Origin: the human T2T-CHM13v2.0 reference genome, Homo sapiens
Strand: one strand, 5' to 3'
DNA: 64,000 nt
NCBI RefSeq assembly: GCF_009914755.1
Contig: NC_060933.1
Part shown: positions 40,714 to 48,979 of the stretch, piece by piece
How the letters are laid out: the number at the start of each line of letters is the position of its first letter
Position numbering within the stretch: the stretch's first letter is position 1
Program-made: the position numbers and the translations under genes
Notes under the pieces: generated by a model
The model's input: only the letters and a program-made list of their open reading frames with translations
The model's database searches: none
What the model was told of the DNA's origin: nothing

Positions 40714-40719
40714 TTTAAT
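40714..40719 (-). terminator. Poly(A) signal ATTAAA for the distal C9orf153 exon
   Basis: ATTAAA 3 nt after the tag stop, followed by a U/GU-rich downstream element (gatttttgcttttg). Confidence 0.65.
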
Positions 40720-40722
40720 ACA

Positions 40723-40961
40723 CTACATATTCCATTTAAGAGAATAACTTCCTTCATTTTGATAATCAATTTGAGGATAAATGACCAAAGACTTGCGAAC
40801 TATAGGGGGGAAAATAACGTCAGGCATGTCCTGGCTCTCTACAAATCTCTTCTCAGTGTTGTATTTTATGTCTCCGAATGAAATTGCAGTAGTGCGCCTC
40901 CACTTCGCAAGCCCCTTAAAATATCTCCATTCCAGATCCCTTAGATTCATGAATTGTTTTC
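40723..40961 (-). CDS. C9orf153: C9orf153 distal terminal exon (G-KQFMNLRDLEWRYFKGLAKW...SLKWNM*)
   Basis: Acceptor gattcttttcag|gaa at 40963-40962; phase 1 fits the 46768 donor exactly and runs into ORF 40723..40950; ATTAAA directly after the stop. Confidence 0.75.
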
Positions 40962-41099
40962 CTGAAAAGAATCATATTTTCAAAGAATCACATGGTGTTG
41001 TTACTCAGCCTTTCATTACTCAGAGATGCTTCATGGACAGGGTAAACCTTTGATGAACTCGAGTCCCCTCTTTCTGGCAGAAAGCCATTTCTAAAGCTT

Positions 41100-41414
41100 T
41101 ATTTTTAATTTTTATTTATTTATTTATTTTGAGACGGAGTTTTGCTCTTGTTGCCCAGGCTGGAGTGCAATGGTGCGATATCGGCTCATCACAACCTCCG
41201 CCTCCCGGGTTCAAATGATTCTCCTGCCTCAGCCTCCTGAGTAGCTGGGATGACAGGCACCCGCCACCACACCCGGTTACTTTTTTTGTATTTTTAGTAG
41301 AGACGGGGTTTCACCATGTTGGCCAGGCTAGTCTCAAACTCCTGACCTCAGGTGATCCACCCGCCTCAGACTCCCAAAATACTGGGATTACAGAAGTGAT
41401 CCACTGTACCCGGC
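41100..41414 (-). mobile_element. AluS
   Basis: TSD taaagctttta. Confidence 0.93.
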
Positions 41415-42448
41415 CTAAAGCTTTATAAACTTAAGGGAGACCCTGTGATGTCAATTTCATGTAAAGCCTGCCCCTAAACAGCAATTGAGTGGGTCTGGCT
41501 AACTGGGCTTGAGTGGACCCTGCAGAGCCCCGGCAGGTGGACGGAGTATTTCATTCTGTGCTTGGATCCTAACAGAATGTGCAAATGGAGAGCTCTGCAG
41601 AGCACCGAAAGCAGCAGGGAGGAGAAAAGGATCCAAAAACAGGGAGGAAGATGGGTTAGAAGTGCACAGATTGTTAGTGTCATTTCTTCCAAGATGCTAA
41701 TGTAAGCCCTAAGTATAAAAGGGCAGTGGCTGAGCTAGAATCTGGCCATTCTCCATACTCATTCAGAAACCACAAGCTTGAGGTGTCATTAGCAGTTACA
41801 ATTCCTTCAAGTAGCCAATGAGCCAAGGAGAAAGAATCAAGCAAAGACACAGCACATGTTCTCCCCACCAGCAGCGATTCCCCTCTCCCTTCTCTTCCAC
41901 CCTTTTCATGGCTAAATAACGCTGAAAACAACAACAAATCAAGGCTAAAGGCATGGGTTGGAGTGTAAAACCAGGAGCCAACGGGCCACGGGAACAAGTA
42001 TAAGGAGAATTATGGTCACAGCAGACAAGCAGGATGACTGGTCTATTTCTGGTGGGTGACCTTACTGTCCCACATGTGGTGACATTTGAGCATGTCACCT
42101 GTAGTCCAAAGACTGAGCAGGCACCACTCCACTCCAATCAGTCCTCCATCCCTGTACTGGGAGGGCCTGGGCCTGCCTGGTGGGAAGTCTTTATATAGAC
42201 TTTGTACATGTCTGAAGTAGAAGACAGGTGCCAGAGACTCTTCGTTGGGCTCATACCTCCCCAAGTAGAACAGATACTGCCATGGTGTTCAGCAGTCCAT
42301 TCATAAGGCCAGTTGCCAAGTTTCAGGGAGTTTGACAAGATCTTTGGAGGCCTGGCATAGCAAGAAGTGGTGGCAAAAGGAAGGAAGGGGATCTTTAACA
42401 AGAGAAGGTTTAGAGCTGATGATTTTGATGACTAAAGAGCCTCATGTC

Positions 42449-42711
42449 CCAAACTCCTGACCTCAGGTGACCCACCTACCTCGGCCTCCCAAAATGACCA
42501 GCCTGGCCAACAGGGAGAAACCTGGTCCTACCAAAAATACAAAAAATTAGCTGGGCTTGGTGGCGGGCACCTGTCATCACAGCTACTCCGGAGGCTGATG
42601 CAGGAGAATCACTTGAACCTGGGAGGCGGAGGTTGCAGTGAGCCGAGATCGTGCTGCTGCACTCCAGCCTGGGTGACAGAGCAAGACTCTGTCAAAAATA
42701 AATAATAAAAA
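42449..42711 (+). mobile_element. AluS with an inverted 5' segment (42449-42496)
   Basis: Antisense consensus about 82 to 35, then sense from about 84; approximate TSD on both sides. Confidence 0.88.
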
Positions 42712-43199
42712 AAGAAGCTTCACGTCATGATCTCTGACAGACACTTTAGGTTGGCTTACTCCACACGCATTGCAATCCTCTTCTGCCTTCCTCTGCTATA
42801 GAGGGGGGAGCTAAGAACTCTTATTCACCAGCCTTCCCTACAGGAAGGGGTGATGATTGGACACAATTCTGGCCAAGAAGATGTAGAAAGAAATCACTTA
42901 AGGAGAGGTGTTCTGGAAAATCGTTGCTTCCGTATTAAAAGAGGACAGAAGTGTCAATGTGGCTCTTCATCCTATCCCACCTTTTCCTGACTGGAATGTG
43001 GCCACAGCCTCCGAGGGTGAAGATGTCTTTTGGACATGAAAACAAAAGCTACACACAAAAAAATGGCAGAGCCCAGGTCCTTGGAGACATTTGAAAGCAT
43101 CGCTCCACAGAGAGTGGAATCACGGTCACCAGAGACAGAGTAGGGAGTGGGAGGGGAGGATGGAGAGAGATAAGTCAATGGGTTCAGAGTTATAATTAG

Positions 43200-46605: not shown

Positions 46606-46620
46606 TTCATTTTATTGACA
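46557..46620 (-). CDS. C9orf153: C9orf153 terminal exon of the 101-aa isoform ([21 protein letters not shown]), mostly Alu-derived
   Basis: Acceptor tttgctttatacag|tgtc; phase 2 join gives 22+58+1+20 = 101 aa, matching the recalled protein length and C-terminus; stop taa at 46559-46557 lies inside the Alu (TAAA)n linker. Confidence 0.85.
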
Positions 46621-46767
46621 CTGTATAAAGCAAACATATTAATAGCAGCCATGAACCTCAGAACTACAAAATTGCTGTAGGTCAGTATTGGACCATTTCT
46701 GCTCTAGTAAATTTGCAATGAGATTTCCATTCCTTTTCTCCCACATGGCCTCATCTGTTTAAATTAC

Positions 46768-47254
46768 CTGGGTCAACTAAGAAGGATCTACAAAGTTTAT
46801 CTTCAGAAATGAACTTTTCTGGGGTGGCACTGGAAATGCCTAAGCTGCATAAGATTTTGGGGCTTGGAACCTTCTGTACGGTAACTTGGGCCAAGGCATT
46901 CGAGTGATCGGTGAGAATTTCATAAGGAAAAGTGTGCTTGGGAGGGGAGATCCCACACTGTGACAGCCTCTGCTGGGACCTGGAGAGCCTCTCCATGGGA
47001 GAGAGTGAGCTTGCCAGTAAGCTGCGGTAGAGGAGCTCAATCATGGATGCTTGCTTCTCTTTTTTAACCACTGTGCACCTGATAACAGGTTGGAGATCTC
47101 CTCTCACATCAGCGCCCCTGGTGAATGACATGACATTCAGGTTTCTAGCAAGTACTTCCTGTGCTTCGTTAAGTGAAATACCATGCATTTTTAGAAGATT
47201 TGATTTCTTGCTCTCCTTATTAAAATTCTCAATACATGCATATAATTCTGGAAG
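46768..47254 (-). CDS. C9orf153: C9orf153 second coding exon, long form (487 nt, 162 aa + 1 nt) of the predicted 263-aa isoform
   Basis: The frame stays open 311 nt past the weak internal donor, up to a strong donor cag|gtaatt at 46767; non-repetitive, protein-like sequence. Confidence 0.75.
47079..47254 (-). CDS. C9orf153: C9orf153 second coding exon, short form ([11 protein letters not shown]...GDLQPVI, 176 nt)
   Basis: Acceptor ttttgtccacag|ctt is in phase with the previous exon; internal donor cag|gtgcac at 47078; lies within ORF 46751..47371. Confidence 0.9.
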
Positions 47255-48046
47255 CTGTGGACAAAAAAAAAAGTGGTAAGTCACGAGACTGACAAAAATG
47301 TAATATTCTGGCAGACCTACAAACCCTAGAAAAAACCATAGGACAATAAATAACCATAAAGACAAAAGCATTTTTATCTTTGGAAGATATCTTTGCCTAA
47401 CTAAAGCAAGTCAATTGTGGCAATGTGGAATAGAGAACAGAGAGGTCAAATCTCCGATTCACTCCCTTAAAGATGTATTATTTAGACACGTCTTATAAAT
47501 GCTTGTTATAAAATTAGGCAGTTAGAATTGAACTAAGAAGTCTTGAAGATCTTTCCAACTCTGAAATTCTATGAGTGACCACGGAGAGAAATAGCTGTGG
47601 GAGACTGTGGCCTTTGCTTGTTTTGAACAATGCTATTATGTCTTTGAAGGAAGAAAGCGAGCCAGATCACTTAGATATCAGAGCTTCATCCTGTTGTCCA
47701 AAGAGCCCATAATGTTCAGGAATCCAGTGCTGAGGAGGCGACAATAGTCATTGCTCACTGGGATATGTGACCAGAGCAAATGGTGACATACATTGAGTAT
47801 CTGGGAATAGTTATTGGCAGAAAAAAACAGTAACAGATCCCTGAGAGGACCTGTCCCCATCTAAAATCCTATACTTCCTACAAATCCTATCCTTTCTAAG
47901 AGGTTTCTTAGGCCATTACACTGGAAGGCCAAAGAGGCCATAGTCTCAGGTTAGGGCTGAAATTTAGGTCCTTTAGCCCAATGCAGAGTTTTCCTTCAAT
48001 CCTAGTCAATTTTATTGCAAGGGCAACAAATAGAAAGTGAGCTAAC

Positions 48047-48497
48047 GCGTGGGAAAGTAGAAGGGACTTTGGACGTCTTCCAGAATGTCAAGAGTCTGCG
48101 GCTACAGAGGCTACACAAGTGGTCCAGACCCTGGAACCAGTATGAGCTCTGCTACAAGGTGGTGCAGGAATATATGGATGCATTCTCAGTTACGCCAACT
48201 TCAAGTAAGAGGCGACAAGGGCCCGTGGACCAGGAGGATTGCTTTTAATATTTTATAATAGTCTGTTTTGTTAGTTTACCCCAAATTGTGTATCTGTCTT
48301 GTAACTGTTTTAGAAATTGGTACATAGGTGGAGATTTTATAAGTAAATGTGTTAGCACTGATAGTCTTTTTTTCCAGTGTTTTTTTGGGGAGTTAAATAG
48401 TGTGATGTTTGGACCGATATCATGAAATCTTTAGCCTGGAAATTGGGCTGGATTGTTCTCTGGTTAATACATCTTTTCCTAAAGAAAAAAAAAAAAA
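48047..48497 (+). pseudogene. PTPRA: 5'-truncated processed pseudogene of PTPRA (C-terminal D2 tail, 3' UTR and poly(A))
   Basis: Translates to [39 protein letters not shown] (PTPRA as recalled: [48 protein letters not shown]); contains frameshifts; A-tail 48485-48497; 15-bp TSD agaaagtg(a/t)gctaac at 48032-48046 and 48498-48512. Confidence 0.92.
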
Positions 48498-48761
48498 AGA
48501 AAGTGTGCTAACATTGGTGAATGGCTCTTTATAACGAATTATACAACCACACTATCACGAAAACAGCTCAGCACTTCTGCCCACCTGCCCTGGGAAGAGC
48601 TACACTTCTCTGTGACTAAGAATGTTAAGTCATTAAAGTGACATTTTGGAGTTTCCCATGGCTCCCAAGTGTGTCACTGTGCGTTCAATAGTTTGAATGT
48701 TTATGATTCTTGAATGTAAAGCTCCCTGTGTACACCTCGTTGTACAATGTTAAGTACATAC

Positions 48762-48827
48762 TGAACATTGAGGAAGGGTGGCTTCTCTATTGTCCTCAGC
48801 TGGACTGGTGTCTCCAGTGAGGAACAT
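48762..48827 (-). CDS. C9orf153: C9orf153 first coding exon (exon 48853-48762; CDS MFLTGDTSPAEDNREATLPQCS, 22 aa, phase 0)
   Basis: Minus strand: polypyrimidine tract and acceptor ttttttag (AG at 48855-48854), cacgATG with A at -3, 66 nt of codons, donor tca|gtatgt. Peptide matches the N-terminus of C9orf153 as I recall it. Confidence 0.93.
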
Positions 48828-48979
48828 CGTGCTGGGATTTTATTCTCTAATTCCTAAAAAAAGCAATATGAGAAAAGACAAAAATCAAAGATTAAAAATC
48901 AGATAGAATACAAAGGGGGAGGTGAGACTTCTTAAATCTTAATAAATTTGTGAGTGGGACATTTTGAAAATTTTATACC

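What the first reader, a model, noticed from the sequence alone, without database searches (positions are those of the whole stretch)
40714..48853. Intact 263-aa C9orf153 reading frame, 2.6 times longer than the familiar 101-aa protein
Seen: joining 48827-48762 (66 nt), 47254-46768 (487 nt) and 40961-40723 (239 nt) gives 792 nt with no stop, canonical GT-AG sites and exact phase agreement (gac cca g|ga aaa caa ttc atg = DPGKQFM). The long donor CAG|GTAATT is much closer to consensus than the CAG|GTGCAC donor used by the 101-aa form. The distal exon ends in stop + ATTAAA + U-rich element. The extra about 180 residues are non-repetitive and include an aromatic, motif-like stretch (DPGKQFMNLRDLEWRYFKGLAKW). 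Inference: this is the ancestral full-length protein, and the 101-aa form is a truncated splice variant. I cannot tell whether some annotation set already lists it.
Basis: partly seen in the sequence, partly recalled or inferred. Interest (0 to 1): 0.8.

Follow-up and report, generated by a model that had tools for sequence, protein, structure and literature searches.

The report
Known long isoform of C9orf153
The 263-residue reading frame is real and is the form of this sperm-cell gene that mammals have conserved, but the same human protein is already in public databases, so it matters mainly for annotation.

Summary
On the minus strand, 48827-48762 + 47254-46768 + 40961-40723 gives 792 nt with no internal stop: 263 aa plus TAG, with GT-AG borders.

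It is not new. An identical 263-aa human protein is already in NCBI nr and UniRef as "Chromosome 9 open reading frame 153".

- 20 of the 43 relatives found with the extended exon are 245-269 aa.
- All 36 proteins over 137 aa that carry the distal-exon frame also carry the N-terminal DUF5532 domain. They span primates, tree shrew, colugo, rodents, carnivores, bats, ungulates, whale and armadillo.
- Five marsupials have the same architecture.
- The distal exon is the best conserved part: 16 of 79 columns are at least 90% conserved.

The short forms look derived.
- The RefSeq form is 95 aa, not 101.
- The 101-aa form ends in an Alu-like terminal exon at 46620-46557.
- The Arg codon that gives the short donor its AG|GT appears only in anthropoid rows.

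How often humans use the long junction could not be tested. The predicted structure has no compact fold, and nothing similar was found among solved structures.

The parts
48762..48827 (-). Coding part of the start-codon exon (ATG at 48827-48825), 66 nt, phase 0, donor TCA|GTATGT. Shared by all forms.
47079..47254 (-). Common part of the second coding exon (176 nt, residues 23-80 plus two bases), up to the short donor CAG|GTGCAC. Core of Pfam DUF5532.
46768..47078 (-). Exon extension (311 nt, residues 81-184), used when the downstream donor CAG|GTAATT (GT at 46767-46766) is chosen. Open only in this frame. Holds 7 columns conserved at 90% or more.
40723..40961 (-). Distal exon read in the long frame (residues 185-263, TAG at 40725-40723). 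The best conserved part of the protein: 16 of 79 columns at 90% or more.
40916..40961 (-). The same exon read in the short-form frame: a 15-residue tail and TAA. This gives the 95-aa RefSeq protein.
   Evidence: and the hub's annotation table
46557..46620 (-). Alternative terminal exon of the 101-aa form. Acceptor TTTATACAG|TGT, 20-residue tail, TAA inside a (TAAA)n run. Its 3' part lies in an Alu-like repeat that has 17 other copies in the window.
40714..40719 (-). ATTAAA hexamer 4 nt after the long-form stop. One of six poly(A)-type hexamers in the annotated 3' UTR. Its use is not shown.

Best explanation
C9orf153 is a single-copy, spermatid-expressed gene whose conserved product is a protein of about 260 residues. 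It is made by splicing the second coding exon at its downstream donor (46768) to the distal exon (40961).

The conserved protein has three parts:
- an N-terminal DUF5532 region (residues 1-90);
- a faster-evolving middle with conserved islands;
- a strongly conserved C-terminal module encoded by the distal exon.

In anthropoid primates a weaker upstream donor (47079) is also used. It shifts the frame of the distal exon, giving the 95-aa RefSeq form, or joins an Alu-derived terminal exon, giving the 101-aa UniProt form. Both short forms lose about two thirds of the protein, including its best conserved part.

Shown here: the frame, the splice sites, identity to a database record, and the conservation and distribution of the long form.

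Inferred:
- the short donor arose in anthropoids;
- the long form is the functional one in humans;
- the protein acts as a largely unfolded adaptor or structural factor of spermatids, working through short helical and linear motifs such as predicted helix 191-208. I put about 0.3 on that last point.
For: - The joined frame is letter for letter identical to P0002, a 263-aa Homo sapiens record in NCBI nr and UniRef.
- One search found 43 relatives among 66 candidates; 20 of them are 245-269 aa.
- searched with the distal-exon frame alone and found 36 proteins among 45 candidates. All are over 137 aa, all carry PF17673, and they come from at least nine placental orders.
- One search found tammar wallaby, koala, Tasmanian devil, bilby and opossum proteins of 262-307 aa. 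They align through the extension and the junction motif.
- The junction P|[G/E]KQF aligns in all 49 rows of A3. Three rows have model insertions there.
- Columns at least 90% conserved: 0 of 22 (first exon), 7 of 58 (common exon), 7 of 104 (extension), 16 of 79 (distal exon).
- P0040 (253 aa, on a 1138-nt contig) and P0105 (258 aa, on a 2118-nt contig) span the junction on contigs too short to hold an intron of human size. They look like spliced transcripts.
- The Arg at residue 81, which supplies AG|G before the T of codon 82, is present in only 4 of 49 A3 rows (human and three Old World monkeys). It is also present in orangutan and owl monkey.
- Expression is reported in spermatids and is low in non-obstructive azoospermia (passages read in PMC10257997 and PMC11961434).
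- There is only one locus in the human genome.
Against: - No human transcript or peptide data could be examined, so use of the 46768-to-40961 junction in humans is not shown here. The hub's table says RefSeq lists three transcripts and none has the extended exon.
- Within catarrhines the extension is 81-85% identical to human. By my own rough estimate from recalled human-Old World monkey divergence, that is about what neutral change would give, so constraint on that part may be weak in primates.
- Most orthologue proteins are automatic gene models, which favour long open frames.
- The claim that the short donor is specific to anthropoids rests on amino acids only. A tarsier 96-aa model of the short type exists without Arg at that position.
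- The functional statement has no direct support. The AlphaFold2 model has pLDDT 56 and pTM 0.17, and no relative was found among solved structures.
Confidence: 0.88

Rival explanations
1. Relic in humans. The long frame is ancestral, but in humans and perhaps all apes splicing has moved almost wholly to the upstream donor. The 263-aa protein is then hardly made, the frame is open only because too little time has passed, and the reference 95/101-aa forms are the true human products.
For: - The RefSeq selected transcript and its two others lack the extended exon (hub's table).
- The extension is only 81-85% identical between human and Old World monkeys.
- Gorilla, chimpanzee, drill and gelada entries are 95-104 aa.
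Against: - A human 263-aa record exists in two databases.
- Colobine and green-monkey long models of 265-266 aa exist.
- The long donor matches the consensus better.
- The two length differences in the extension between human and the monkeys are whole codons.
- The distal exon is 87-92% identical in the long frame.
Confidence: 0.25
2. Chance or non-coding. 46768-47078 is intron and 40723-40915 is 3' UTR. The open frames are accidents, and the long orthologue proteins are artefacts of gene predictors that maximise open frames.
For: Many orthologue records are predicted models. Several entries from unnamed sources (P0001, P0006, P0016, P0021, P0023, P0027) are plain genomic-type open frames that run through the long donor into the intron.
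Against: - Open frames of these lengths are rare: 0.78% and 0.16% of shuffles; 51 of 3444 and 122 of 3448 window samples.
- The frame is kept from marsupials to humans, with invariant or near-invariant columns inside both regions.
- Two contigs that look spliced span the junction.
Confidence: 0.03
3. Regulated unproductive splicing. Both donors are used on purpose. The short forms are not functional proteins but a way to lower output of the long protein in primate spermatids.
For: Two competing donors 311 nt apart share one acceptor. The short-form tails are a frame-shifted read of a conserved exon or an Alu-like fragment, so they were not selected as protein.
Against: Nothing here measures usage or regulation. 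Both short-form stops lie in terminal exons, so by the usual rule (established knowledge) they would not trigger nonsense-mediated decay.
Confidence: 0.1

Closest known systems
Human 263-aa record 'hypothetical protein G5576_115583 [Homo sapiens]' / UniRef 'Chromosome 9 open reading frame 153' (P0002)
   Same: Identical over all 263 residues to the joined frame.
   Different: Nothing in sequence. It is an unreviewed record and is not among the RefSeq transcripts listed for this window.
RefSeq NM_001276366.4 product (95 aa) and UniProt Q5TBE3 (101 aa)
   Same: Same start codon and the same first 80 residues.
   Different: - They use the upstream donor at 47079.
- The 95-aa form reads the distal exon in another frame, giving a 15-residue tail.
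- The 101-aa form ends in an Alu-like exon at 46620-46557.
- Both lack residues 81-263.
'C9orf153 homolog' proteins of other mammals, for example horse F6Q6T1 (266 aa), and unnamed marsupial LOC proteins
   Same: Same three-part layout, same junction position and same C-terminal module. Identity to human is 44-88% in placentals and 30-34% in marsupials.
   Different: Marsupial proteins have a longer N-terminus and a shorter C-terminal end.
Pfam DUF5532 (PF17673)
   Same: The long protein scores 145.7 bits against a cut-off of 26.4.
   Different: The 92-position model covers only residues 1-90. The remaining 173 residues have no Pfam family.
Alternative 5' splice-site use and Alu-derived terminal exons (general, well-described phenomena)
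   Same: Two donors share one acceptor. The terminal exon has its stop, and possibly its poly(A) signal, in the A-rich part of an Alu-like repeat.
   Different: The repeat lies in the sense orientation. The Alu assignment rests on likeness to 17 other copies in the window and on recall of the consensus. No repeat library was available.

Membership tests
Pfam DUF5532 (PF17673) | Score above the curated gathering cut-off of the family model | tested here: met
   145.7 bits against 26.4, residues 1-90, profile positions 1-91 of 92. The exon-2 piece alone scores 112.4 bits.
Long-form C9orf153 orthologue group (therian mammals) | N-terminal DUF5532 region followed by a central region with conserved islands (columns L97, L101, L102, I124, P127, F131, P132) | tested here: met
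   Alignments A1, A2 and A3.
Long-form C9orf153 orthologue group (therian mammals) | Exon junction at P|[G/E]KQF, followed by the C-terminal module encoded by the distal exon | tested here: met
   The junction aligns in all 49 rows of A3. All 36 hits to the C-terminal module carry PF17673.
Long-form C9orf153 orthologue group (therian mammals) | The long junction is used in mRNA of the species in question (here human) | not testable with these tools
   No human RNA data are available. The existence of database record P0002 is only indirect evidence.
Alu-derived terminal exon (the 101-aa form) | Exon sequence belongs to a dispersed Alu repeat | tested here: inconclusive
   46355-46603 matches 17 other places in the window at 67-79% identity. 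The family name is from recall, not from a repeat library.
Solved sperm or other structural proteins in the PDB | Sequence or fold similarity to a solved chain | tested here: not met
   Profile search: best E-value 0.33. Foldseek: best E-value 1.1. The model is too poor for the fold search to count.

The most novel reading that the evidence does not exclude
The reference human protein (95 aa in RefSeq, 101 aa in UniProt) is a by-product specific to anthropoid primates. A new Arg codon created an upstream donor and an Alu insertion supplied a terminal exon. Together they divert transcripts of a spermatid gene conserved across therians away from its best conserved two thirds. Human C9orf153 would then be either mis-represented in the reference sets or in the course of being truncated in our lineage.
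Probability: 0.35. Interest if true: 0.4.

Novelty: already known. Interest (0 to 1): 0.22.

Why it matters
The value is mainly for curation. Studies that use the reviewed or selected human entry see only the first 80 shared residues of a 263-residue conserved protein, so they miss its most conserved module. That affects variant interpretation, proteomic searches, antibody design and male-infertility marker work. It also gives a small, clean example of a primate splice-site gain plus a repeat-derived terminal exon truncating an older gene. It does not reveal a new kind of gene or mechanism.

Tried and rejected
- **Structure.** AlphaFold2 with 19 sequences gave pLDDT 46 and pTM 0.15. With 49 sequences it gave pLDDT 56 and pTM 0.17, with isolated helices only. 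Foldseek against the PDB had no match at E 0.001 or better; the best was E 1.1. I treat this as meaningless because the model has no compact fold.
- **PDB sequence profile search.** Best E-value 0.33.
- **ESM Atlas.** It holds the exact sequence but gave no usable neighbour and has no model.
- **Distant relatives.** A profile search of 1.84 billion representatives gave only 48 proteins at E 0.001 or better. The 14 I fetched and read, and four already seen, are orthologues, fragments or fusion models of this same family; the other 30 I judge only by their scores and matched profile ranges.
- **Pfam on the C-terminal 78 residues.** Nothing. A weak BrnT_toxin row (E 0.21, 12.4 bits against a cut-off of 34.5) is noise.
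- **Rfam on 39000-49500.** Nothing.
- **Literature.** 'C9orf153' occurs in 13 papers. By the search listing (titles and abstract starts) they are marker, association or gene-list studies; I read passages in only three of them. 'DUF5532' occurs in 0 papers. 'Q5TBE3' occurs in 1 paper, a plasma protein table. A mouse gene symbol I recalled as the possible orthologue gave 1 paper that I did not read and did not use.
- **dN/dS or PhyloCSF.** Not possible, because no mammalian genome other than the window's own is held.
- started the Alu-like exon 3 nt too early. One search corrected it.
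Full report
**1. The observation**

Reading the minus strand and joining the three stretches by coordinates gives 66 + 487 + 239 = 792 nt. That is 263 codons followed by TAG at 40725-40723.

- The annotated upstream donor is CAG|GTGCAC (47079).
- Against the textbook consensus MAG|GTRAGT (recalled), the long donor matches 8 of 9 positions and the short donor 6 of 9.
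- The other two frames of both exons are full of stops.

The open frames are unlikely by chance.
- Shuffles of the extension stay open in 0.78% of 5000 trials. Shuffles of the distal exon in the long frame stay open in 0.16%.
- Across the window on both strands, 51 of 3444 sampled 104-codon stretches and 122 of 3448 sampled 78-codon stretches are open.

Both regions are unique in the window and free of tandem repeats.

**2. Corrections of detail**

- The RefSeq selected transcript (short donor joined to 40961) encodes 95 aa.
- The 101-aa form is a third product. It uses the same short donor, joined to a terminal exon at 46620-46557 with acceptor TTTATACAG|TGT. Its TAA lies in a (TAAA)n run. 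The human join is 98 of 101 identical to the chimpanzee entry and 100 of 101 to the gorilla entry.
- The 3' part of that exon lies in a dispersed repeat with 17 other copies in the window, at 67-79% identity. From recall of the consensus it is Alu-like; no repeat library was available.
- The ATTAAA at 40719 exists, but it is one of six such hexamers in the annotated 3' UTR. Another, at 39511, sits just before the annotated end at 39493.

**3. Is it already listed?**

Yes. A search with the 162-aa extended exon returned a 263-aa protein named 'hypothetical protein G5576_115583 [Homo sapiens]' in NCBI and 'Chromosome 9 open reading frame 153' in UniRef. It is letter for letter the joined frame. 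The ESM Atlas also holds it.

I found no paper on the isoform.
- 'C9orf153' occurs in 13 papers. By the search listing (titles and abstract starts) they are marker, association or gene-list studies; I read passages in three of them.
- 'DUF5532' occurs in none.

**4. Is the long form ancestral?**

- One search gave 43 relatives among 66 candidates. Twenty are 245-269 aa. Six are 95-120 aa: five primates and one raccoon dog fragment.
- A search with the 78 residues of the distal exon in the long frame, restricted to longer proteins, gave 36 hits among 45 candidates. All carry PF17673. They come from catarrhines, lemurs, tree shrew, colugo, many rodents, carnivores, a bat, rhinoceros, ruminants, peccary, a whale and armadillo.
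- A divergent representative from the profile search proved to be from tammar wallaby. Koala, Tasmanian devil, bilby and opossum have relatives of 262-307 aa. These align through the extension and the junction motif.

I then aligned 49 roughly full-length proteins (A3). I left out fragments, read-through or fusion models (for example P0048-P0052, P0056, P0094, P0108, P0109) and models with a different 3' end (P0011, P0013).

- The junction P|[G/E]KQF lines up in every row. Three squirrel-family models carry insertions there that read into the intron.
- Columns conserved at 90% or more number 0 of 22 (first exon), 7 of 58 (common part), 7 of 104 (extension) and 16 of 79 (distal exon).
- The part absent from the short forms therefore includes the best conserved module.

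Two records from unnamed sources span the junction on contigs far shorter than the 5.8-kb human intron: P0040 (253 aa on 1138 nt) and P0105 (258 aa on 2118 nt). They look like spliced transcripts. The profile search of 1.84 billion representatives found only 48 proteins; the 18 I read are all of this family, and the other 30 I judge only by their scores and matched profile ranges. The human genome has one locus only.

**5. The short donor**

The exon ends AG, and the intron starts with the third base of codon 81 and the first base of codon 82. Arg (AGG in human) at residue 81 appears in 4 of 49 A3 rows, namely human and three Old World monkeys. It also appears in orangutan and owl monkey. Lemurs, tree shrew and all other orders have other residues.

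I infer that the AG|GT context is an anthropoid novelty. This rests on amino acids only. A tarsier 96-aa short-type model without Arg is a caution.

**6. Caveats**

- No human RNA or peptide data could be examined.
- Human versus Old World monkey identity is 88-95% in the common exon, 81-85% in the extension and 87-92% in the distal exon. The extension value is near my rough neutral expectation, which is based on recalled divergence figures.
- The two length differences there are whole codons.
- Constraint on the middle region in primates may therefore be weak, and a 'relic in humans' reading keeps about 0.25.

**7. What the protein may do**

- Passages in two papers place expression in spermatids and report low levels in non-obstructive azoospermia.
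- AlphaFold2 predicts isolated helices at 23-40, 50-65, 93-105, 114-121, 132-147 and 191-208, with no compact fold (pLDDT 56, pTM 0.17).
- Neither the PDB sequence profile search (best E 0.33) nor Foldseek (best E 1.1) finds a relative.
- The protein is basic overall (pI 8.95), with an acidic N-terminal third.
- My committed but weak reading (about 0.3) is a largely unfolded spermatid adaptor or structural factor. It would act through conserved helical and linear motifs, the C-terminal module being the key surface.

**8. Verdict**

The remaining value is for curators: the selected and reviewed human entries show only a truncated, apparently primate-specific product.

Noticed in passing
window 46557-46620 (-), repeat about 46355-46603: The 20-residue tail of the 101-aa reference protein, its stop and a run of AATAAA-type hexamers come from the A-rich part of an Alu-like repeat lying in the sense orientation. 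This makes the reference tail primate-specific.
   Followed up: partly
window 28519-28647 (-): The C-terminal 28 residues of an orangutan 'isoform X3' model (P0003, 214 aa) use the long donor and then match here. This is about 11 kb beyond the annotated end of the human gene (39493), which hints at a further downstream alternative exon.
   Followed up: no
proteins P0108, P0109 (sheep, ibex); P0052, P0056 (rodent-like, unnamed): These are fusion gene models. The sheep and ibex models join DUF5532 to PF01521, which probably comes from the neighbouring ISCA1 gene (my inference). The rodent models continue into a sequence that I recall as the start of neighbouring GOLM1. They are probably read-through or mis-merged models.
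   Followed up: no
window 42972-43616 (-) and 44054-44509 (-): Stop-to-stop open frames of 214 and 151 aa lie inside the large intron. They have no Pfam match. The 214-aa frame overlaps a 132-nt-period Alu-like array (43211-43544); a (TTTC)n run (44546-44697) lies just beyond the 151-aa frame. Most likely these are repeat-derived chance frames.
   Followed up: partly
Pfam PF17673 against P0002: The DUF5532 model is only 92 positions long and covers residues 1-90. Its last ten or so positions follow the long-form frame beyond the short donor. The family definition therefore misses two thirds of the conserved protein.
   Followed up: partly
proteins P0001, P0006, P0016, P0019, P0021, P0022, P0023, P0027, P0031: Genomic-type open frames from several mammals run past the long donor and mostly end the same way (...DPGNLNR, then a stop). 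This suggests that the first bases of the intron after the long donor are conserved across orders.
   Followed up: no
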